Origin: Escherichia coli | GTDB taxonomy: Bacteria > Pseudomonadota > Gammaproteobacteria > Enterobacterales > Enterobacteriaceae | DNA: 64,000 nt | Reading direction: 5' to 3' (one strand) | Assembly: GCF_044324875.1 (NCBI RefSeq) | Contig: NZ_CP172185.1 | In this document: piece by piece, positions 976 through 11,276 of the stretch | Numbering within the stretch: position 1 is the stretch's first letter | Layout: the number at the start of each line of letters is the position of its first letter | Notes under the pieces: model-generated | Told to the model about the DNA's origin: nothing | What the model saw: only the letters and a program-made list of their open reading frames with translations | The model's database searches: none | Position numbers and translations under genes: made by a program

Positions 976-3798
976 ATGGATAAGATCGAAGTTCGGGGCG
1001 CCCGCACCCATAATCTCAAAAACATCAACCTCGTTATCCCCCGCGACAAGCTCATTGTCGTGACCGGGCTTTCGGGTTCTGGCAAATCCTCGCTCGCTTT
1101 CGACACCTTATATGCCGAAGGGCAGCGCCGTTACGTTGAATCCCTTTCCGCCTACGCGCGGCAGTTTCTGTCACTGATGGAAAAGCCGGACGTCGATCAT
1201 ATTGAGGGGCTTTCTCCTGCCATCTCAATTGAGCAGAAATCGACGTCTCATAACCCGCGTTCTACGGTGGGGACAATCACCGAAATCCACGACTATTTGC
1301 GTTTGTTGTTCGCCCGCGTCGGTGAGCCGCGCTGCCCGGACCACGACGTCCCGCTGGCGGCGCAAACCGTCAGTCAGATGGTGGATAACGTGTTGTCCCA
1401 GCCGGAAGGTAAACGCCTGATGCTGCTCGCGCCAATCATTAAAGAGCGCAAAGGCGAACACACCAAAACGCTGGAGAACCTGGCAAGTCAGGGTTACATC
1501 CGTGCTCGTATTGATGGCGAAGTCTGCGATCTTTCCGATCCGCCGAAACTGGAACTGCAAAAGAAACATACCATTGAAGTGGTGGTTGATCGCTTCAAGG
1601 TGCGTGACGATCTTACCCAACGTCTTGCCGAGTCGTTTGAAACCGCGCTGGAGCTTTCCGGTGGTACCGCGGTAGTTGCGGATATGGACGACCCGAAAGC
1701 GGAAGAGTTGCTGTTCTCCGCTAATTTCGCCTGCCCAATTTGCGGCTACAGTATGCGTGAACTGGAGCCGCGACTGTTTTCGTTTAACAACCCGGCAGGG
1801 GCCTGCCCGACCTGTGACGGCCTTGGCGTGCAGCAATATTTCGATCCTGACCGCGTGATCCAGAATCCGGAACTGTCGCTGGCTGGCGGTGCGATCCGAG
1901 GCTGGGATCGCCGCAACTTCTATTACTTCCAGATGCTGAAATCGCTGGCAGATCACTATAAGTTCGACGTCGAAGCGCCGTGGGGCAGCCTGAGCGCGAA
2001 CGTGCATAAAGTGGTGTTGTACGGTTCTGGCAAAGAAAACATTGAATTCAAATACATGAACGATCGTGGCGATACCTCCATTCGTCGTCATCCGTTCGAA
2101 GGCGTGCTGCACAATATGGAGCGCCGTTATAAAGAGACGGAATCCAGTGCGGTACGCGAAGAATTAGCCAAGTTTATCAGCAATCGCCCGTGCGCCAGCT
2201 GCGAAGGGACGCGTCTGCGTCGGGAAGCGCGCCATGTGTATGTCGAGAATACGCCGCTGCCTGCTATCTCCGACATGAGCATCGGTCATGCGATGGAATT
2301 CTTCAACAATCTCAAACTCGCAGGTCAGCGAGCGAAGATTGCGGAAAAAATTCTTAAAGAGATTGGCGATCGCCTGAAATTCCTCGTTAACGTCGGCCTG
2401 AATTACCTGACACTTTCCCGCTCGGCAGAGACACTTTCTGGCGGTGAAGCCCAGCGTATCCGTCTGGCGAGCCAGATTGGTGCGGGCCTGGTTGGCGTTA
2501 TGTACGTGCTGGACGAGCCGTCTATCGGCCTGCACCAGCGCGATAACGAGCGCCTGTTGGGTACGCTTATCCATCTGCGCGATCTCGGTAATACCGTGAT
2601 TGTGGTGGAGCACGACGAAGACGCGATTCGCGCCGCTGACCATGTGATCGACATTGGCCCGGGCGCAGGTGTACACGGCGGTGAAGTGGTCGCAGAAGGT
2701 CCACTGGAAGCGATTATGGCAGTGCCTGAGTCGTTGACCGGGCAGTACATGAGCGGCAAACGCAAGATTGAAGTGCCGAAGAAACGCGTTCCGGCGAATC
2801 CGGAAAAAGTGCTGAAGCTGACAGGCGCACGTGGTAATAACCTGAAAGACGTGACGCTGACGCTGCCAGTCGGTCTGTTTACCTGCATCACAGGGGTTTC
2901 AGGTTCCGGTAAATCGACGCTGATTAACGACACACTGTTCCCGATTGCCCAACGCCAGTTGAATGGTGCGACCATCGCCGAACCGGCACCGTATCGCGAT
3001 ATTCAGGGGCTGGAGCATTTCGATAAAGTGATCGATATCGACCAAAGCCCAATTGGTCGTACTCCGCGTTCTAACCCGGCGACCTATACCGGCGTGTTTA
3101 CGCCTGTGCGCGAACTGTTTGCGGGCGTACCGGAATCCCGTGCGCGCGGCTATACGCCGGGACGTTTCAGCTTTAACGTCCGTGGCGGGCGCTGCGAAGC
3201 CTGTCAGGGCGACGGCGTGATCAAAGTGGAGATGCACTTCCTGCCGGATATCTACGTACCGTGCGACCAGTGCAAAGGCAAACGCTATAACCGTGAAACG
3301 CTGGAGATTAAGTACAAAGGCAAAACCATCCACGAAGTGCTGGATATGACCATCGAAGAGGCGCGTGAGTTCTTTGATGCCGTACCTGCACTGGCGCGTA
3401 AGCTGCAAACGTTGATGGACGTTGGTCTGACGTACATTCGCCTGGGGCAGTCCGCAACCACACTTTCTGGTGGTGAAGCCCAGCGCGTGAAGCTAGCGCG
3501 TGAGCTGTCAAAACGCGGCACCGGGCAGACGCTGTATATTCTTGATGAGCCGACCACCGGTCTGCACTTCGCCGATATTCAGCAACTGCTCGACGTACTG
3601 CATAAACTGCGCGATCAGGGCAACACCATTGTGGTGATTGAGCACAATCTCGACGTGATCAAAACCGCTGACTGGATTGTCGACCTGGGACCGGAAGGCG
3701 GCAGTGGCGGCGGCGAGATCCTCGTCTCCGGTACGCCAGAAACCGTCGCGGAGTGCGAAGCTTCGCATACGGCACGCTTCCTCAAGCCGATGCTGTAA
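976..3798 (+). CDS. uvrA: Excinuclease ABC subunit A
   Basis: 940-aa translation [19 protein letters not shown]...; two ABC ATPase halves with Walker [10 protein letters not shown] and GVSGSGKST and zinc-finger Cys motifs. Confidence 0.98.
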
Positions 3799-3803
3799 TC
3801 GTT

Positions 3804-3833
3804 AAGGCCGCTTTCTGAGCGGCCTTTTCCTTT
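3804..3833. terminator. Bidirectional rho-independent terminator between convergent uvrA and yjbR
   Basis: AAGGCCGC-tttctga-GCGGCCTT hairpin followed by a T-rich tract. Confidence 0.6.
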
Positions 3834-4189
3834 CAGAGTTGCACCAGCAATTTACGTTTTTCTTCCGGCAGCAAATTCACCGCCTGCTGATAAGACGCAT
3901 CCACCAGATAATAGATTTGCGAATCCGGTAGCGATCCGTCGAGATACACGGTGCTCCAGTGCGCTTTATTCAGATGGCGGCTTGGACGCACATCGCTGTG
4001 CTGCTGACGTAGCAGCTCCGCCAGCTCCGGGCTGGTTTTCAGCGAAACCGCCGGGCGATTTTCTACTTCTTTCACCATCGCAAACAGTACATCTTCCACT
4101 TTGATCTGCGTCGCTTTCCAGTCGTTATGCACGCTCTGTTCTGCGCCTGGTTTTGCCATGCAATATTGTAGCAACTCCGAAATGGTCAT
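3833..4189 (-). CDS. yjbR: Uncharacterised protein YjbR (118 aa)
   Basis: Translation MTISELLQYCMAKPGAEQSVHNDWKATQIKVEDVLFAMV..., length and position match K-12 yjbR. Confidence 0.85.
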   Translation of the reverse strand: MTISELLQYCMAKPGAEQSVHNDWKATQIKVEDVLFAMVKEVENRPAVSLKTSPELAELLRQQHSDVRPSRHLNKAHWSTVYLDGSLPDSQIYYLVDASYQQAVNLLPEEKRKLLVQL

Positions 4190-4192
4190 TTT

Positions 4193-4609
4193 TTACTCCC
4201 CTTGTAGTGTCGCGATAATGCGACGCGATCCGCCGTGGATGCGATGTTCCCCCAGCCAGATGCCTTGCCAGGTGCCGGTCTGAATACGCCCTTTATGCAC
4301 CGGCAATACAAGCGATGTTCCCAGCATTGAGGATTTGATATGAGAAGGCATATCGTCTGCTCCCTCATAGTCATGCTCATAATTTCCGTTGTCGGGAACG
4401 GTGCGGAGGAAAAAACGCTCCATGTCGTGGCGTACGGTGGGATCGCAGTTCTCATTAAGTGTCAGAGAGGCGGAGGTATGTTGCAGCAACAGATGCAGTA
4501 AACCGATGTTAACGCGCGGCATATCAGCCAGCTGATTCAGAATTTCATCCGTTACCAGATGAAACCCACGAGATTTGGCGCTAAGCGTGAGCGTCTTTTG
4601 ATACCACAT
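4193..4609 (-). CDS. yjbQ: UPF0047-family protein YjbQ (138 aa)
   Basis: Translation [23 protein letters not shown]..., synteny between aphA and yjbR. Confidence 0.85.
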
Positions 4610-4719
4610 GTGCTGCTCCTTGATAAAACTCTCTTAATCAGTTTGCAGCAAGACAGAGAAAGGATAAAGGTGTGATTAAAAAAACAGCATTCGGGAGAGT
4701 GTCACGCTCTCCCGCTCTG

Positions 4720-5622
<903 letters not shown>

Positions 5623-5833
5623 TCAATGAAGGATACATTAATTTTACGTTTATTATGATGAATCCTCTGCAAATGAGCGAAATTTGATAGAACATTTATC
5701 TGCTGTACGATTTAATGAACTTAATGATACAGCATTACAAAAACAATCGAAGTTTATAAAGATGATTTCTGATTGACCAGAACCCTACCCTACAATGGTG
5801 ACTAATTTTATTACTCTCGAAGGAGATGATGAT

Positions 5834-6337
5834 ATGAATATATCATATGTGAATAGCAACAAAATGACATCTTTACCTGTTGAGCTAGATGCACTAAATA
5901 ATAAAGATATCTCTTATTCCAAAGATTTTTCTTATGCCAAAGATCTCTTTTTATATATAGAAACACAGTTAAAAATTGCAAAAGATTTTTGTAGACCAGG
6001 AGAGGAAGTATCAAGATCTATTGCAAATAAAGTTTTTCATGCATTTATTGATTTAGTTAACAAAATCAGAGGCAAGAAAGATTGTATGTATATTTGCACA
6101 CTTTGCTGTTTTGCCGAGGAGGTTAAAGGTGATTATTCTCATTACAGAACCTTTTTATTTGATATTGGTAATCAATATAAGGTTAAACTTACACAAAGCG
6201 GAAAAAAAGAGTTCTCTTTAACATTAGAATTTAACGATACTATAATTGAATCTCAGAAAGTCACAGGCAATAAGGCAAAGCATATTCTTGAGGATATAGA
6301 AATATTCTATCGTAACAAACCCGATACTTATTATTAA
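5834..6337 (+). CDS. Hypothetical protein (167 aa from the ATG preceded by GAAGGAG; track ORF starts at 5795), AT-rich, Cys cluster CMYICTLCC
   Basis: Long ORF in a visibly AT-rich islet between aphA and tyrB; Shine-Dalgarno 8 nt upstream of ATG 5834; no recognised family. Confidence 0.5.
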   Translation: MNISYVNSNKMTSLPVELDALNNKDISYSKDFSYAKDLFLYIETQLKIAKDFCRPGEEVSRSIANKVFHAFIDLVNKIRGKKDCMYICTLCCFAEEVKGDYSHYRTFLFDIGNQYKVKLTQSGKKEFSLTLEFNDTIIESQKVTGNKAKHILEDIEIFYRNKPDTYY

Positions 6338-6558
6338 ATTTAATAATGGTTAGATGTGCAGAAATTATTACTCCACACGGTAAAACAGGGAAAAGCACTC
6401 CAGAACATTGGGATAAACTTAACAAGTTAGAACTAACAACGTTTTATTACCTCTCACGTAGAACGATGGCATCAAAAAAATCATCTATAAAGCAAGAGTG
6501 AAAGCGACGACAGTTTAATTTCACTGCAGGCTGGATAACTCCAGCCTGCTTTCCTGCA

Positions 6559-7752
6559 TTACATCACCGCAGCAAACGCCTTTGCCACACGTTGTACATT
6601 TGCCGTATTTAACCCGGCGACACACATGCGACCGCTGGCGATGAGATAGACACCAAATTCTTCACGTAGTCGGTCAACCTGAGCGGCACTTAAACCGGTA
6701 TAACTGAACATGCCGCGCTGATTAAGCAGATAATCGAAATTGCGTTCTGGCATCTCTGTGCTTAATACCTTCACCAGTTCCTGACGCATTGCCAGAATGC
6801 GAGTACGCATCTCTTCTACTTCCGCCAGCCAGCTGGCTTTCAATGCCTCGTCATTCAGCACTGCAGCCACCACCTGCGCACCAAAATTCGGCGGGCTGGA
6901 GTAGTTGCGGCGAACTGTTGCTTTCAATTGCCCCAGTACGCGGCCTGCAGCTTCGGCATCTTCACACAGAACAGAAAGTCCGCCAACGCGCTCGCCGTAA
7001 AGGGAGAAAATTTTCGAGAACGAATTGCTCACCAGAGCGGGTAATCCAGCGCTGGCAATGGCGCGAATGGCGTAGGCATCCTCTTCCATACCGGCACCAA
7101 ATCCTTGATAGGCAATATCAAGAAATGGGATAAGCTCGCGGGCTTTGAGAATTTCAATCACCGCATCCCACTGGTTATTAGTGAGATCGGCACCCGTTGG
7201 GTTGTGGCAACATGGGTGGAGCAACACAATACTGCGGGCAGGTAATGTTTTTAGCGTCGCCAACAGGTCATTAAAGCGCACGCCGTTAGTCGCTTCGTCA
7301 TACCAGGGGTAAGTACTCACTTCGAATCCAGCCCCGGCGAATATTGCTACGTGGTTTTCCCAGGTAGGATCGCTGACCCAGACGCCTGATTCCGGGAAGT
7401 AGCGTTTCAGGAAATCTGCGCCCACTTTCAATGCCCCTGAGCCGCCAAGGGTTTGAATGGTTGCTACGCGCTGTTGTTGCAGTACCGGATGGTCCGCACC
7501 AAACAGCAGCGGCGCAATGGCATGGCGATAGCTGTTAAGCCCTTCCATCGGTAAATAAAGCGAAGCGCCATGAGGCTGCGCATTCAGGCGCGCTTCCGCA
7601 TCCGCCACGGCTTTCAGTTGGGGAATAATTCCGTCTTCGTTGTAGTACAGACCGATACTTAAATTCACTTTGTCGCTGCGAGGGTCTTCTTTGAAACGCT
7701 CCATAAGCGTAAGAATCGGGTCGCCAGCGTAGGCGTCAACTTTTTGAAACAC
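6559..7752 (-). CDS. tyrB: Aromatic-amino-acid aminotransferase (GTG start; track ORF extends to 7794)
   Basis: Translation (V)[40 protein letters not shown]... gives 397 aa from the GTG; GGAG Shine-Dalgarno upstream. Confidence 0.95.
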
Positions 7753-7947: not shown

Positions 7948-7964
7948 GGCCGGATAAGGCATTC
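7948..7964. repeat. Left half of a REP palindromic unit split by the IS insertion
   Basis: GGCCGGATAAGGCATTC joins 12042-12058 TTCACGCCGCATCCGGC to give a typical REP palindrome once the IS and one TTC copy are removed. Confidence 0.7.
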
Positions 7965-8015
7965 TGAACTGCACCCCAAATGTTGGACATAATCTGACAT
8001 CTGAAGGTGCAGTTT

Positions 8016-8537
8016 ATGAAACATTCATTTGAAGTAAAACTTGCCGCTGTAAATCATTACCTGGCCGGTCATGCAGGCATCATTTCTACGGCAAAACTCT
8101 TTCAACTTTCTCACACCAGCCTCTCACACTGGATTAATCTTTTTCTTCTTCACGGTCCTCGGGCACTGGATTGCAGACACAAGCGTAGCTATTCTCCTGA
8201 AGATAAACTTTGCGTGGTTCTTTATGCTCTCGGGCATTCTGAGTCTCTACCCCGGGTAGCTGCCCGGTTTAACATTCCCAGCCACAACACGGTTAAAAAC
8301 TGGATAAAAGGCTACCGCAAATCTGGTAATGAGGCCTTTATCAGGCGCTGGAAGGAGAAAAGCATGACCCGTTCTGATGATACCCATGAAAACGAGGCAA
8401 ACATGACGCCGGAAGAGATGAAGAATGAGCTGCGTTATCTTCGCGCAGAAAATGCATATCTGAAAGCCATGCAGGAGCATCTCCTGGAAAAAAAGCGCCA
8501 GGAGCTGGAGAAAAAACGAAAGTCATCCGGAGCCTGA
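8016..8537 (+). CDS. IS3-family transposase OrfA (HTH / leucine-zipper part)
   Basis: 173-aa translation MKHSFEVKLAAVNHYLAGHAGIISTAKLFQLSHTSL... recognised as IS150-group OrfA. Confidence 0.85.
   Translation: MKHSFEVKLAAVNHYLAGHAGIISTAKLFQLSHTSLSHWINLFLLHGPRALDCRHKRSYSPEDKLCVVLYALGHSESLPRVAARFNIPSHNTVKNWIKGYRKSGNEAFIRRWKEKSMTRSDDTHENEANMTPEEMKNELRYLRAENAYLKAMQEHLLEKKRQELEKKRKSSGA
8489..8495 (+). other. Programmed -1 ribosomal frameshift heptamer A AAA AAG (orfA to orfB)
   Basis: A_AAA_AAG sits in the orfA zero frame (codons GAA AAA AAG); the -1 frame then reads ...RSTLYYQLSLQKAKDKYA, a typical OrfB N-terminus. Confidence 0.7.
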
Positions 8538-8637
8538 GGTGCGGATACTGCCAGTCTGATCTGTTAAAGGCTGCAGGGCTGGCCAGAAGCACGCTGTACT
8601 ACCAGCTGTCACTGCAGAAGGCTAAGGACAAGTATGC

Positions 8638-8775
8638 TGCAAAATGGCATCTGAATCGATCGCAGTTTGGCATTCGAATCGATCATGATTTGGCATCCAT
8701 CTCCGATCACAGTTTGGCATCACAATCGATCACGATTTGGCATGCTTCCGATCATTGATTGGCATCCTGCCAGTC
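8638..8775 (+). repeat. Six tandem 22-24 bp direct repeats at the IS21-family left terminus
   Basis: Units of the form nnnnTTTGGCATnnnnnnCGATC repeated six times. Confidence 0.8.
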
Positions 8776-8839
8776 ACTCCGGGAATTAACTCTTTTCACC
8801 ACAGTCTCCATTGCCGTGTTTAAACCAGTGGAGACGTCA

Positions 8840-10405
8840 ATGTCCAGAAAGAGAAAATCCAGGAGCACTATGGAAACCTGTTTTAAGATCCTTCAGCTCA
8901 AGTTCGACAAGAAGCTGACTAACCGTTGTATCGGACTGACGTTACACATCAGCGCCTCAACCGTTTTTGAGGTTCTTGCCCGCTTCAAAGCCTCTTCTCT
9001 GTCATGGCCATTACCTGCTGATATATCCCATGACACGCTGGAGAAACTCATTTTTCCGCCCAAAGACACCTTTGCATCAGAGCTTGTAATGCCTGACATG
9101 TTGTACTTCGATACGGAAATGAGAAAACCAGGTGTGACGCGGCAACTGTTGTGGATGGAATACAAGGCACAGGCGGGTAACAAAGCGATGGGATACTCGC
9201 ACTTCTGCCGTTGCTACCGGGAGTGGAAAAAAACGCGACGTCTCTCCATGCGCCAGGAGCATCGTGCCGGCGAAAAGCTTTTTATCGACTTCTGTGGTCC
9301 TACGGTTCCTGTTATTAATCCGGACACCGGTGAGATACGCCGCGTGGCAATCTTCGTGGCCGTAATGGGGGCGTCCAACTATACCTACGTTGAAGCGTGC
9401 GAAGGTCAGGACATGATGTCATGGTTAAATGCCCACAGCCGTTGCCTGACCTTCCTGGGCGGCGTACCGAAGCTGCTCATCCCCGATAACCTCAGAAGCG
9501 CAGTGAAAAAGGCCGATCGATATGAGCCTGTCATCAACGACAGTTATCAGGCACTGGCTGAGCACTATGGCACGGTTATCATCCCGGCCCGACCACGCAA
9601 ACCTAAAGATAAACCAAAAGCAGAAAACGGCGTCCTCATCGTTGAACGATGGCTTCTTGCCCGCATCCGTAATGAAACCTTCCACACGCTCAGGGCGCTG
9701 AATGCGCGCCTTAGGGAGTTACTGACAGACATGAATAACCGGCCAATGAAGGGGTACGGCAATCAAACCCGTGCAGAACGCTTCCGCATACTGGATGCGC
9801 CAGCACTCTCTCCGCTGCCTCTGGCACCTTATGAATACACGGAATACAAAGCTGTGAAGGTTGGCCCTGACTACCACGTTGAATATGCCCGTCACTGGTA
9901 CTCCGTTCCACACGAACTGGTCGGTCAGCGTCTGTCACTGAAGGCGGGGCAGTCGGTGGTACAGCTCTGGCACAAGGGGCAGTGTGTGGCGCAACATCCG
10001 CGCAGCACACATGAATATAAACACACAACCAATCCGCTTCACATGCCAGAGCGCCACCGGCAGCACGGGACATGGACACCGGAACGCCTGATCGAGCAGG
10101 GAAAACGTACGGGCCCGTCCACAGGCCGGGTGGTTGAATCCATGCTGAAGGCAAAACCCCATCCGGAACTGGCTTATCGTGCAGTTCTGGGGCTGCTGGC
10201 ACTTCAGAAAAAATACGGCCCGGAACGGCTGGAAAAGGCCTGTTACGTTGCCCTGCACTATAACGCCCCTGACAGACGCTTTATCGACAATCTGCTGCGT
10301 CACCATCGGGAGAACCTGGAGCTTCCATTATCCCGCCAGGGCGAACAACATCCGGCATATGCTTCAGAGCATGAAAACCTGCGTGGTCCGGGCTACTACC
10401 ACTGA
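8840..10405 (+). CDS. istA: IS21-family transposase IstA (track ORF starts at 8759; ATG 8840 has a GGAG Shine-Dalgarno)
   Basis: Translation MSRKRKSRSTMETCFKILQLKFDKK... with N-terminal HTH and central DDE-integrase region (...FIDFCGP..., ...IIPARPRKPKDK...). Confidence 0.8.
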   Translation: MSRKRKSRSTMETCFKILQLKFDKKLTNRCIGLTLHISASTVFEVLARFKASSLSWPLPADISHDTLEKLIFPPKDTFASELVMPDMLYFDTEMRKPGVTRQLLWMEYKAQAGNKAMGYSHFCRCYREWKKTRRLSMRQEHRAGEKLFIDFCGPTVPVINPDTGEIRRVAIFVAVMGASNYTYVEACEGQDMMSWLNAHSRCLTFLGGVPKLLIPDNLRSAVKKADRYEPVINDSYQALAEHYGTVIIPARPRKPKDKPKAENGVLIVERWLLARIRNETFHTLRALNARLRELLTDMNNRPMKGYGNQTRAERFRILDAPALSPLPLAPYEYTEYKAVKVGPDYHVEYARHWYSVPHELVGQRLSLKAGQSVVQLWHKGQCVAQHPRSTHEYKHTTNPLHMPERHRQHGTWTPERLIEQGKRTGPSTGRVVESMLKAKPHPELAYRAVLGLLALQKKYGPERLEKACYVALHYNAPDRRFIDNLLRHHRENLELPLSRQGEQHPAYASEHENLRGPGYYH

Positions 10406-10421
10406 CAGAAGGAACAACAGT

Positions 10422-11177
10422 ATGAGTGATAACCTGTTAAACAAACTGACCCAACTGAAACTCCCGGCGATGGCCGGGAGCCTGATACGGCAGCGGGAAA
10501 CGCCTCAGACCTACGACGAACTGTCGTTCGAGGAAAGGCTGACGCTGCTGGTTGATGACGAGCTTCTGAGCAGGGAAAACAGCCGTGTGGCACGGTTGAG
10601 AAAAAATGCCGGCCTGAAATACCAGGCAACACCGGAAGGGCTGCGCTATCCGGCCTCAAGAGGTCTGCGGGCTGAACAGATGAGAGAACTGCTGAACGGC
10701 CACTACATAACCCACAGGAAAAACCTGCTGATAACCGGTCCGACAGGATGTGGCAAGAGCTGGATAGCCAATGCGCTGGGCGAACAGGCATGTCGACAGA
10801 AACACAGCGTCCGGTACTGTAGAACCGGGCGATTACTGGAACAACTGGCTCAGGGACGTGTTGATGGCAGCTGGCTGAAATATCTGAAACAGTTGCAAAA
10901 AATACAGGTTCTAATCCTGGACGATCTGGGGCTGGAACAGTTAAGTAACGCCCAGTGTAATGACCTTCTGGAGCTCATAGAGGATCGTTACGGACAAAGC
11001 AGCACGATAGTGGTAAGCCAGTTCCCGGTAGATAAATGGCATGGTCTGATGGAGAACCCAACAACAGCAGATGCCATCCTGGACAGACTGGTACATAACT
11101 CACACCGAGTGGTCCTTCAGGGAGAGTCACTGAGGAAAAATCCCCCGGTAGTGGAAAGCAGCGAAAAAACGCGTTAA
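10422..11177 (+). CDS. istB: IS21-family ATP-binding helper protein IstB
   Basis: 252-aa translation MSDNLLNKLTQLKLPAMAG... with Walker A GPTGCGKSW and Walker B VLILDDLG; starts 17 bp after the istA stop. Confidence 0.85.
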   Translation: MSDNLLNKLTQLKLPAMAGSLIRQRETPQTYDELSFEERLTLLVDDELLSRENSRVARLRKNAGLKYQATPEGLRYPASRGLRAEQMRELLNGHYITHRKNLLITGPTGCGKSWIANALGEQACRQKHSVRYCRTGRLLEQLAQGRVDGSWLKYLKQLQKIQVLILDDLGLEQLSNAQCNDLLELIEDRYGQSSTIVVSQFPVDKWHGLMENPTTADAILDRLVHNSHRVVLQGESLRKNPPVVESSEKTR

Positions 11178-11199
11178 AAAGCGGTAGAAAAAGTTAAGT

Positions 11200-11276
11200 T
11201 CCCGGTTGATCGAATGGATGCGAATCGCTGATCGGACTTCGATGCCAATCCGTGATCGAATAGAGCGGAATACGCA
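11200..11276 (+). repeat. About three inverted copies of the same repeat unit at the IS21-family right terminus
   Basis: Reverse complement reads TGCGTATTCCGCTCTATTCGATC / ACGGATTGGCATCGAAGTCCGATC / AGCGATTCGCATCCATTCGATC. Confidence 0.7.

What the first reader, a model, noticed from the sequence alone, without database searches (positions are those of the whole stretch)
8486..8500. Programmed -1 frameshift heptamer A_AAA_AAG in the IS3-family element
The slippery heptamer lies in-frame in orfA (GAA AAA AAG) about 45 nt before the orfA stop, and the -1 frame downstream encodes a typical OrfB N-terminus (...RSTLYYQL...). A second A-rich run (GAG AAA AAA CGA) follows 20 nt later. This supports an OrfAB fusion transposase design, here inactivated by the IS21 insertion.
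Basis: partly seen in the sequence, partly recalled or inferred. Interest (0 to 1): 0.3.

Follow-up and report, generated by a model that had tools for sequence, protein, structure and literature searches.

The report
IS1397 transposase -1 frameshift site
The A_AAA_AAG run at 8489-8495 is the already catalogued programmed -1 ribosomal frameshift site of the E. coli insertion sequence IS1397; it is intact here, but a second mobile element inserted downstream means it could only yield a truncated, inactive transposase.

Summary
Observation confirmed, interpretation supported, already known. The element at 7965-12041 is IS1397 (IS3 family, IS150 group; 99.4% identical to annotated copies). It sits in a REP loop between tyrB and alr, and an ISSso4-family IS21 element (8638-11276) splits its orfB. 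A_AAA_AAG (8489-8495) is in the X_XXY_YYZ phase of orfA, inside the 109-nt orfA/orfB overlap. The -1 frame has no stop before the insertion. With the insert removed, the 449-aa fusion matches the IS3 transposase model end to end. Sharma et al. 2014 list this site (cluster A_AAA_AAG_5) with an upstream SD-like sequence and a 38-nt hairpin 3 nt downstream. I recover both: AGGAG 8472-8476 and hairpin 8499-8536 (-12.4 kcal/mol, z -3.4). RefSeq marks intact copies "programmed frameshift". Six relatives with 53-59% OrfA identity keep GGAAAAAAAGCGCC invariant. In two of them the -1 frame opens exactly at the heptamer. The second A-run is out of phase, variable, lies in the hairpin loop, and should shift at background level only. 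One nuance: IS150 and about 53 other relatives carry the heptamer nine codons upstream (ENAYL-KK), so the IS1397 clade has relocated its site. No experiment or covariation supports the hairpin. Low interest.

The parts
7965..8637 (+). IS1397, left part (IS positions 1-673): 25-bp imperfect left inverted repeat starting TGAAC, orfA, the recoding cassette and the 5' end of orfB
   Evidence: 99.4% identical to IS1397 copies annotated in RefSeq. The left boundary is confirmed by a 100% match of the reconstructed empty site.
11283..12041 (+). IS1397, right part (IS positions 674-1432): rest of orfB (stop TAA 12007-12009) and the right inverted repeat ending GTTCA
   Evidence: the two parts join to 1432 bp with an uninterrupted orfB. 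Boundary confirmed.
8016..8537 (+). orfA (173 aa, HTH DNA-binding protein); stop TGA 8535-8537
   Evidence: 98% identical to a cluster of 2287 E. coli proteins (P0001).
8429..8537 (+). orfA/orfB overlap window (109 nt) within which the frameshift must occur
   Evidence: the -1 frame is open from 8429, after the stop TGA at 8426-8428.
8472..8476 (+). SD-like AGGAG, 12 nt upstream of the heptamer; predicted upstream frameshift stimulator
   Evidence: Read directly from the sequence. It lies inside the 6-17 nt interval used by Sharma 2014, who score SD = 1.00 for the IS1397 cluster. Duplex with the 16S rRNA 3' end is -6.6 kcal/mol. AGGAG is present in 5 of 7 clade members and GGGAG in one more.
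8489..8495 (+). Slippery heptamer A_AAA_AAG, the programmed -1 ribosomal frameshift site
   Evidence: In phase with orfA. Invariant in 7 of 7 IS1397-clade elements. Published as cluster A_AAA_AAG_5, labelled 'true'. RefSeq CDS note 'programmed frameshift'.
8499..8536 (+). 38-nt hairpin CAGG-AG-CUGGA...UCCGG-AG-CCUG, 3 nt after the heptamer; predicted downstream stimulator. Its 3' arm overlaps the orfA stop codon.
   Evidence: -12.4 kcal/mol, z = -3.43, with 2 of 200 shuffles folding as well. It matches the published hairpin size of 38 nt, spacer 3 and first stem 4 bp. The outer stem can pair in 7 of 7 relatives; 84% of cells pair versus 30-43% when partners are slid, with no significant covariation.
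8511..8516 (+). Second A-run (codons AAA AAA, preceded by G), lying in the hairpin loop; not a canonical in-phase heptamer
   Evidence: Phase. It varies among relatives (A6C, A5G, ACAAAA). The A_AAA tetramer gives only 0.13-0.26% frameshifting.
8495..8637 (+). 5' part of orfB read in the -1 frame from the re-read G of the heptamer (APGAGEKTKVIRSL...ARSTLYYQ...DKYA)
8638..11276 (+). ISSso4-family IS21 element (istA, istB), 2639 bp, inserted in IS1397 orfB; 6-bp target duplication GTATGC at 8632-8637 and 11277-11282
   Evidence: 100% identical full-length copies occur elsewhere, annotated as IS21 family transposase and ISSso4 family IstB. Ends defined against another copy.
8756..8758 (+). First stop (TGA) met by the -1 frame in this copy, inside the ISSso4 left end; the frameshift product would be 247 aa without the DDE domain
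7962..7964 (.). 3-bp target duplication TTC of IS1397 (second copy at 12042-12044), in the loop of a REP/palindromic unit (7948-7964 and 12042-12059)
   Evidence: The reconstructed empty site matches other E. coli genomes at 100% over 251 nt.

Best explanation
The window carries a copy of IS1397, a 1432-bp IS3-family element of the IS150 group. Its transposase is made as an OrfA-OrfB fusion by programmed -1 ribosomal frameshifting. Ribosomes translating orfA reach GAA AAA AAG with the single E. coli tRNA-Lys (anticodon UUU) in both the P and A sites. Both tRNAs slip back one base on A_AAA_AAG (8489-8495). Translation then continues in the orfB frame (...LLEKK|APGAGEKTKV...) into the HTH_21 and DDE (rve) domains. 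Slippage is probably enhanced by pairing of 16S rRNA with AGGAG (8472-8476) 12 nt upstream, and by a 38-nt hairpin (8499-8536) that begins 3 nt downstream. Non-shifting ribosomes stop at 8535-8537 and make OrfA alone. What is shown: the element's identity, the phase of the heptamer, the open -1 frame, the full-length match of the fusion, conservation of the heptamer, and the predicted stimulators. What is inferred: that shifting actually occurs here, its efficiency, and the roles of the SD-like sequence and hairpin. In this copy the signal is intact, being identical over 8430-8545 to the IAI39 copy. An ISSso4-family IS21 element in orfB means a shifted ribosome would stop at 8756, giving a 247-aa product without a catalytic domain. 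The copy is therefore not autonomous.
For: Identity: 99.4% to IS1397 copies in 1720 of 5426 complete E. coli genomes, annotated 'IS3-like element IS1397 family transposase, programmed frameshift'. Anatomy: in-phase heptamer, 109-nt overlap, no -1 stop, and a 1432-bp reconstructed element. Product: 449 aa with NF033516 at 388 bits over profile positions 1-369 of 369, plus Pfam HTH_28, HTH_21, rve and rve_2. Literature: Sharma et al. 2014 (PMC4066793), Tables S4 and S8, list IS1397 orfA as cluster A_AAA_AAG_5. They say -1 PRF there 'can be safely inferred', with SD 1.00, hairpin 1.00, size 38 nt, spacer 3 and first stem 4 bp. The same paper measured A_AAA_AAG at 0.29% without a stimulator, 4.3% with the IS911 stimulators and 39% with the IS3 pseudoknot. 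Comparative: six relatives at 53-59% OrfA identity keep GGAAAAAAAGCGCC invariant at the same codon. In L083 and L085 the -1 frame opens exactly at the heptamer, so the overlap is only 40-43 nt. Of 59 more distant relatives with the -1 arrangement, 56 have an in-phase A_AAA_AAG or A_AAA_AAA in their overlap. Hairpin: z = -3.4, and its pairing positions are conserved.
Against: I could reach no experimental demonstration of frameshifting for IS1397; the original papers (PMC94167, PMC95333, PMC169884) are not held, and Sharma 2014 call it inferred. The hairpin has no significant covariation support. Its 3-nt spacer is shorter than the 6 nt seen in IS150, IS911 and IS2. Longer downstream stretches fold no better than shuffles (z = -0.2 and -1.0). 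The heptamer is not at the position used by IS150 and most relatives. The exact RefSeq join coordinates could not be checked.
Confidence: 0.9

Rival explanations
1. The shift occurs, wholly or partly, at the second A-run (GAG AAA AAA CGA, 8508-8519). This would give an OrfAB of the same length with junction ...EKKRQELEKK|TKVIRSL.
For: The run lies inside the overlap, and a -1 shift there also gives a 449-aa full-length fusion. Every clade member keeps at least an A_AAA or A_AAG tetramer at this place. RQELEKK continues the coiled-coil-like OrfA tail.
Against: It is not an in-phase X_XXY_YYZ heptamer, because the P-site tRNA would have to re-pair on GAA. The run varies among relatives (A6C, A5G, ACAAAA), whereas the first site is invariant. 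It lies in the hairpin loop with no structure at a suitable distance downstream. The A_AAA tetramer gave only 0.13% without and 0.26% with a pseudoknot. The AGGAG at 8500-8504 is only about 5 nt upstream of it, outside the 6-17 nt interval.
Confidence: 0.04
2. The fusion arises from transcriptional slippage: RNA polymerase adds or omits an A in the A7 run (8488-8494), and no ribosome slips.
For: The heptamer is part of a run of seven A. Some IS3-family elements do use transcriptional realignment; this is established knowledge (Baranov et al. 2005, cited in PMC4066793).
Against: Elements known to use this have runs of about nine or more A or T (my knowledge, not tested here), and seven is short. 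The conserved feature is the in-phase A_AAA_AAG with its final G plus flanking SD-like sequence and hairpin, which matter to ribosomes rather than to polymerase. The same heptamer is a measured ribosomal shift site in E. coli.
Confidence: 0.04
3. The heptamer is incidental. OrfB is translated on its own, by coupling or internal initiation, and no fusion protein is made.
For: Gene callers annotate a separate orfB in relatives, starting at a GTG that overlaps the orfA stop.
Against: IS1397 has no ATG, GTG or TTG in the orfB frame within the overlap. The expected number of chance in-phase heptamers is about 0.009. The heptamer is invariant across diverged relatives. The fusion matches the IS3 transposase model as one continuous protein. 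Natural single-ORF relatives exist in which the A and B parts are fused.
Confidence: 0.02

Closest known systems
IS1397 (IS3 family, IS150 group; Bachellier et al. 1997; Clement et al. 1999) and its catalogued recoding site, cluster A_AAA_AAG_5 in Sharma et al. 2014 NAR
   Same: It is this element. It is 99.4% identical and 1432 bp long, has a 3-bp target duplication in a REP/PU loop, and carries the same heptamer, SD-like sequence and 38-nt hairpin with a 3-nt spacer.
   Different: This copy has an ISSso4-family IS21 element inserted in orfB at IS position 673/674. It also differs by a few substitutions, none within 8430-8545.
IS150 frameshift signal (Vogele et al. 1991; experimentally demonstrated)
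   Same: It belongs to the same IS group, has the same A_AAA_AAG heptamer near the end of orfA, gives the same kind of OrfAB fusion, and has a downstream hairpin.
   Different: In IS150 the heptamer encodes the KK of MYL-KK-L, the family-typical site, whereas in IS1397 it lies nine codons (27 nt) further downstream. The IS150 hairpin is 48 nt with a 10-bp first stem and a 6-nt spacer, and there is no SD. IS1397 has a 38-nt hairpin with a 4-bp first stem, a 3-nt spacer and an SD-like sequence.
IS911 and dnaX -1 frameshift signals
   Same: Both combine A_AAA_AAG with an upstream SD-like stimulator and a downstream structure.
   Different: The genes and structures are unrelated: IS911 has a 57-nt branched structure with a 6-nt spacer, and dnaX frameshifting yields a shorter product. 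For IS1397 the roles of the SD-like sequence and hairpin are predicted, not measured.

Membership tests
IS1397 (IS3 family, IS150 group) | Nucleotide identity to reference IS1397 copies over the whole element | tested here: met
   99.4% over the left part and 99.2% over the right part against the IAI39 copy. RefSeq names these copies IS1397 family.
IS1397 (IS3 family, IS150 group) | About 1.4 kb, TG...CA termini with imperfect inverted repeats, and a 3-bp target duplication in the loop of a REP/palindromic unit | tested here: met
   1432 bp after removing the insert. Termini TGAAC...GTTCA and duplication TTC; the empty site matches other genomes at 100%.
IS1397 (IS3 family, IS150 group) | orfA (HTH) followed by orfB (DDE integrase core) in the -1 frame; the fusion matches the IS3 transposase model | tested here: met
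   Pfam rve, rve_2, HTH_21 and HTH_28; NF033516 at 388 bits against a cutoff of 160, over the full profile.
Programmed -1 ribosomal frameshift signal, X_XXY_YYZ type | Slippery heptamer in the correct phase within the overlap of the 0 and -1 frames | tested here: met
   A_AAA_AAG at 8489-8495 with codons GAA AAA AAG; overlap 8429-8537.
Programmed -1 ribosomal frameshift signal, X_XXY_YYZ type | Heptamer conserved in diverged homologues beyond what the protein sequence requires | tested here: met
   14 consecutive invariant columns (GGAAAAAAAGCGCC) in seven elements with 53-59% OrfA identity, while the neighbouring KK codons of the second run vary. With only seven sequences, no formal synonymous-site test was done.
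Programmed -1 ribosomal frameshift signal, X_XXY_YYZ type | Downstream stimulatory RNA structure a few nucleotides after the heptamer | tested here: inconclusive
   A hairpin is predicted at 8499-8536 (-12.4 kcal/mol, z = -3.4) and was published as predicted. The outer stem can pair in 7 of 7 relatives, but covariation is no better than shuffles. No pseudoknot complementarity was found and no Rfam family matches.
Programmed -1 ribosomal frameshift signal, X_XXY_YYZ type | Upstream SD-like sequence at stimulatory spacing (optional feature) | tested here: met
   [quoted passage not shown] Its function was not tested.
Programmed -1 ribosomal frameshift signal, X_XXY_YYZ type | Frameshift product actually synthesised, with a junction peptide spanning the heptamer | not testable with these tools
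   This needs a reporter assay or mass spectrometry. Sharma 2014 class the site as 'safely inferred', not demonstrated.
Transcriptional-slippage recoding site | Long homopolymer (about 9 or more A or T) at the frame junction | tested here: not met
   The run is A7 (8488-8494) and the second run is A6. The threshold comes from my knowledge of the literature.

The most novel reading that the evidence does not exclude
Recoding-site turnover within one IS lineage. IS150, about 53 other relatives and the natural single-ORF versions all switch frame right after ENAYL-KK. The IS1397 clade (seven elements seen here) has lost that slippery site (ENAYL-KA, CTG AAA GCC). It uses a new A_AAA_AAG nine codons downstream, with a different stimulator set: an SD-like sequence plus a compact hairpin with a 3-nt spacer. 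Its OrfAB therefore keeps nine extra OrfA-frame residues. I found no description of this relocation in the papers I could read. A weaker add-on is that the second A-run provides a low-level alternative shift site, giving a second isoform.
Probability: 0.6. Interest if true: 0.25.

Novelty: already known. Interest (0 to 1): 0.12.

Why it matters
It matters little beyond correct annotation. The site explains how IS1397 makes its transposase from two overlapping frames and why automated pipelines join the two ORFs. In this window it shows that the recoding signal is intact while the element is disabled by a nested IS21-family insertion. The copy could move only if another IS1397 copy supplied transposase in trans. 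The one modestly new point is that the slippery site sits 27 nt away from its position in IS150 and most relatives. That is a small example of how recoding signals can move within a conserved overlap.

Tried and rejected
1. Reading the original IS1397 papers (PMC94167, PMC95333, PMC169884): none is held, so I cannot say whether frameshifting was ever shown experimentally.
2. Exact look-up of both candidate fusion proteins, to learn where RefSeq places the join: neither sequence is in the collection.
3. Folding longer downstream stretches (85 and 142 nt): no better than shuffles, z = -1.0 and -0.2. Only the 38-nt hairpin stands out.
4. Covariation test of the hairpin on seven clade members: pairing is conserved but covariation is not significant. 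RNAalifold instead proposed pairing of CCUGC with the upstream GCAGG, which would enclose the slippery site; I do not regard that as the stimulator.
5. Pseudoknot search: there is no complementarity of 5 bp or more between the hairpin loop and the next 100 nt.
6. Rfam: nothing above noise.
7. The second A-run as the true site: rejected on phase, variability and published tetramer efficiencies.
8. Search for the same nested IS1397::ISSso4 junction in complete E. coli genomes: not found. The only near-hit is an independent insertion at another position in strain EC13.

Full report
**What is in the sequence.** Positions 8486-8500 read GGAAAAAAAGCGCCA. The ORF from 8016 (ATG; or GTG at 8007) to TGA 8535-8537 has the codons GAA(8487-89) AAA(8490-92) AAG(8493-95). 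A_AAA_AAG at 8489-8495 is therefore in the X_XXY_YYZ phase that tandem -1 slippage requires. The -1 frame is open from 8429, giving a 109-nt overlap with orfA. After the heptamer it reads APGAGEKTKVIRSLRCGYCQSDLLKAAGLARSTLYYQLSLQKAKDKYA, with no stop before 8637. The second A-rich run, GAG AAA AAA CGA, is at 8508-8519.

**Chance.** AAAAAAG occurs 31 times on both strands of the window, so about 0.009 in-phase copies are expected in a 109-nt overlap. In-phase A_AAA_AAG is also strongly under-represented in E. coli genes (z = -10.1; Sharma et al. 2014, Table S3).

**What the element is.**
- The region 7960-8639 is 99.4% identical to copies that RefSeq annotates as "IS3-like element IS1397 family transposase". 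Such copies occur in 1720 of 5426 complete E. coli genomes.
- Aligning that intact copy to the window shows IS1397 split into 7965-8637 and 11283-12041. The two parts join to 1432 bp with an uninterrupted orfB ending at 12009.
- The insert at 8638-11276 is a 2639-bp IS21-family element of the ISSso4 family (istA, istB). Copies 100% identical to it occur elsewhere. It is flanked by a 6-bp duplication, GTATGC.
- IS1397 itself sits in the loop of a REP/palindromic unit between tyrB and alr, with a 3-bp duplication TTC. The reconstructed empty site matches other E. coli genomes at 100% over 251 nt. This is the known target preference of IS1397 (PMC1525189).

**The product.** A -1 shift at the heptamer gives a 449-aa protein. 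It carries HTH_28, HTH_21, rve and rve_2 domains. It matches NCBIfam NF033516 (IS3 family transposase) over profile positions 1-369 of 369 at 388 bits, against a cutoff of 160. In the window as it stands, a shifted ribosome would run into the ISSso4 left end and stop at 8756. The result would be 247 aa without the DDE domain. The recoding cassette (8430-8545) is identical to that of the IAI39 copy. The signal is therefore intact, but the copy cannot make transposase.

**Already published.** Sharma et al. 2014 (NAR 42:7210, PMC4066793) list IS1397 orfA in Supplementary Table S4 as cluster A_AAA_AAG_5 (59 genes). They mark it "true", and a footnote says -1 PRF "can be safely inferred". Table S8 gives an SD-like sequence in 100% of members and a hairpin in 100%, with size 38 nt, spacer 3 nt and first stem 4 bp. 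I recover both:
[quoted passage not shown] This is inside their 6-17 nt interval, and the duplex with the 16S rRNA 3' end is -6.6 kcal/mol.
- The hairpin 8499-8536, CAGG-AG-CUGGA...UCCGG-AG-CCUG, at -12.4 kcal/mol and z = -3.43.

The same paper measured A_AAA_AAG in E. coli at 0.29% without a stimulator, 4.3% with the IS911 stimulators and 39% with the IS3 pseudoknot.

**Independent comparative test.**
- A scan of species-representative genomes returned 80 loci of relatives, with OrfB 50-60% and OrfA about 30% identical. Of these, 59 have orfB in the -1 frame, and 56 of the 59 have an in-phase A_AAA_AAG or A_AAA_AAA in the overlap.
- An OrfA search found a closer clade at 53-59% identity, and I fetched DNA for six members. 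All six have the heptamer at the same aligned codon as IS1397, and GGAAAAAAAGCGCC is invariant across the seven sequences.
- In L083 and L085 the -1 frame opens exactly at the heptamer, so the overlap is only 40-43 nt. That leaves no other place for the shift.
- The second A-run varies (A6C, A5G, ACAAAA), is not an in-phase heptamer and lies in the hairpin loop. As an A_AAA tetramer it would give about 0.13-0.26%. I reject it as a significant site.

In IS150, the experimentally proven relative, the heptamer encodes the KK of MYL-KK-L and is followed 6 nt later by a hairpin with a 10-bp stem (L088). Nearly all the distant relatives have the heptamer at this same ENAYL-KK position. Natural single-ORF versions in Pseudomonas asuensis join the A and B parts there too. 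In the IS1397 clade that position reads ENAYL-KA (CTG AAA GCC, not slippery), and the heptamer lies nine codons downstream (...AMQEHLLEKK|apgag...). The proteins otherwise remain colinear. It does not refute the call, because the closest relatives share the IS1397 position and IS1397 has no slippery motif at the ancestral one.

**Limits.**
- The hairpin is only predicted. Its outer stem can pair in all seven clade members, and 84% of cells pair versus 30-43% when partners are slid. Covariation, however, is no better than shuffles.
- Longer downstream folds are unremarkable.
- I found no pseudoknot complementarity and no Rfam family.
- The 3-nt spacer is short compared with 6 nt in IS150, IS911 and IS2.
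- I could not read the original IS1397 papers or recover the exact RefSeq join. I therefore cannot cite a direct experimental demonstration.

**Verdict.** The feature is a known, catalogued -1 programmed frameshift site in a common E. coli insertion sequence, here in a copy disabled by a nested IS21-family insertion. Interest is low. The only mildly new point is the 27-nt relocation of the slippery site relative to IS150 and most of the group.

Noticed in passing
window 8638-11276: Complete ISSso4-family IS21 element (istA, istB; 2639 bp; several roughly 23-bp TTTGGCAT-containing repeats at the left end) nested in IS1397 orfB, with a 6-bp duplication GTATGC. Copies 100% identical to it occur on chromosomes and plasmids of other E. 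coli.
   Followed up: yes
L091 (E. coli EC13, NZ_CM169488.1 1286185-1293522), locus positions about 2925-7000: A different IS1397 copy, next to an rrn operon, is also split by an ISSso4-family element in the same orientation. The insertion is at IS position 807-812 rather than 668-673. Two independent ISSso4 insertions into the 5' third of IS1397 orfB could be chance or a target preference.
   Followed up: partly
window 7948-7964 and 12042-12059: IS1397 sits in the loop of a REP/palindromic unit between tyrB and alr (3-bp duplication TTC). The uninterrupted site is present in 4550 of 5426 complete E. coli genomes. The exact nested arrangement in this window was not found in any of them.
   Followed up: yes
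L002, L003, L005, L014 (Pseudomonas asuensis); L043, L048 (P. oryzihabitans, P. rhizoryzae): In these relatives of the same transposase, the OrfA and OrfB parts form one continuous ORF of about 1.4 kb with no frameshift needed. The junction is at the family-typical ENAYLK(K/Q/R) position.
   Followed up: partly
L047 (E. coli SCPM-O-B-8794), locus 2450-3370: An IS1397 derivative with a 193-nt deletion (IS positions 469-661) that removes the whole frameshift window and fuses orfA to orfB in frame. It also carries a further insertion of about 1.4 kb at IS position 1115/1116.
   Followed up: partly
window 8471-8475 with 8533-8537: RNAalifold on the seven clade members prefers pairing of the upstream GCAGG (which overlaps the SD-like AGGAG) with CCUGC, the 3' arm of the hairpin. 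That long-range helix would enclose the slippery site and compete with the published hairpin. Its significance is unknown.
   Followed up: no
L062 (Pseudomonas endophytica), L070 (P. saliphila): These two relatives with the -1 arrangement lack any in-phase heptamer. They have CTA AAG (an A_AAG tetramer) at the ancestral ENAYLK position. L062 also has CAG AAA AAA CGA, which resembles the second A-run of IS1397.
   Followed up: no
whole window: AAAAAAG occurs 31 times on both strands, against 16 +/- 4 in dinucleotide-preserving shuffles. This is a general excess of A-runs, not specific to the IS.
   Followed up: no
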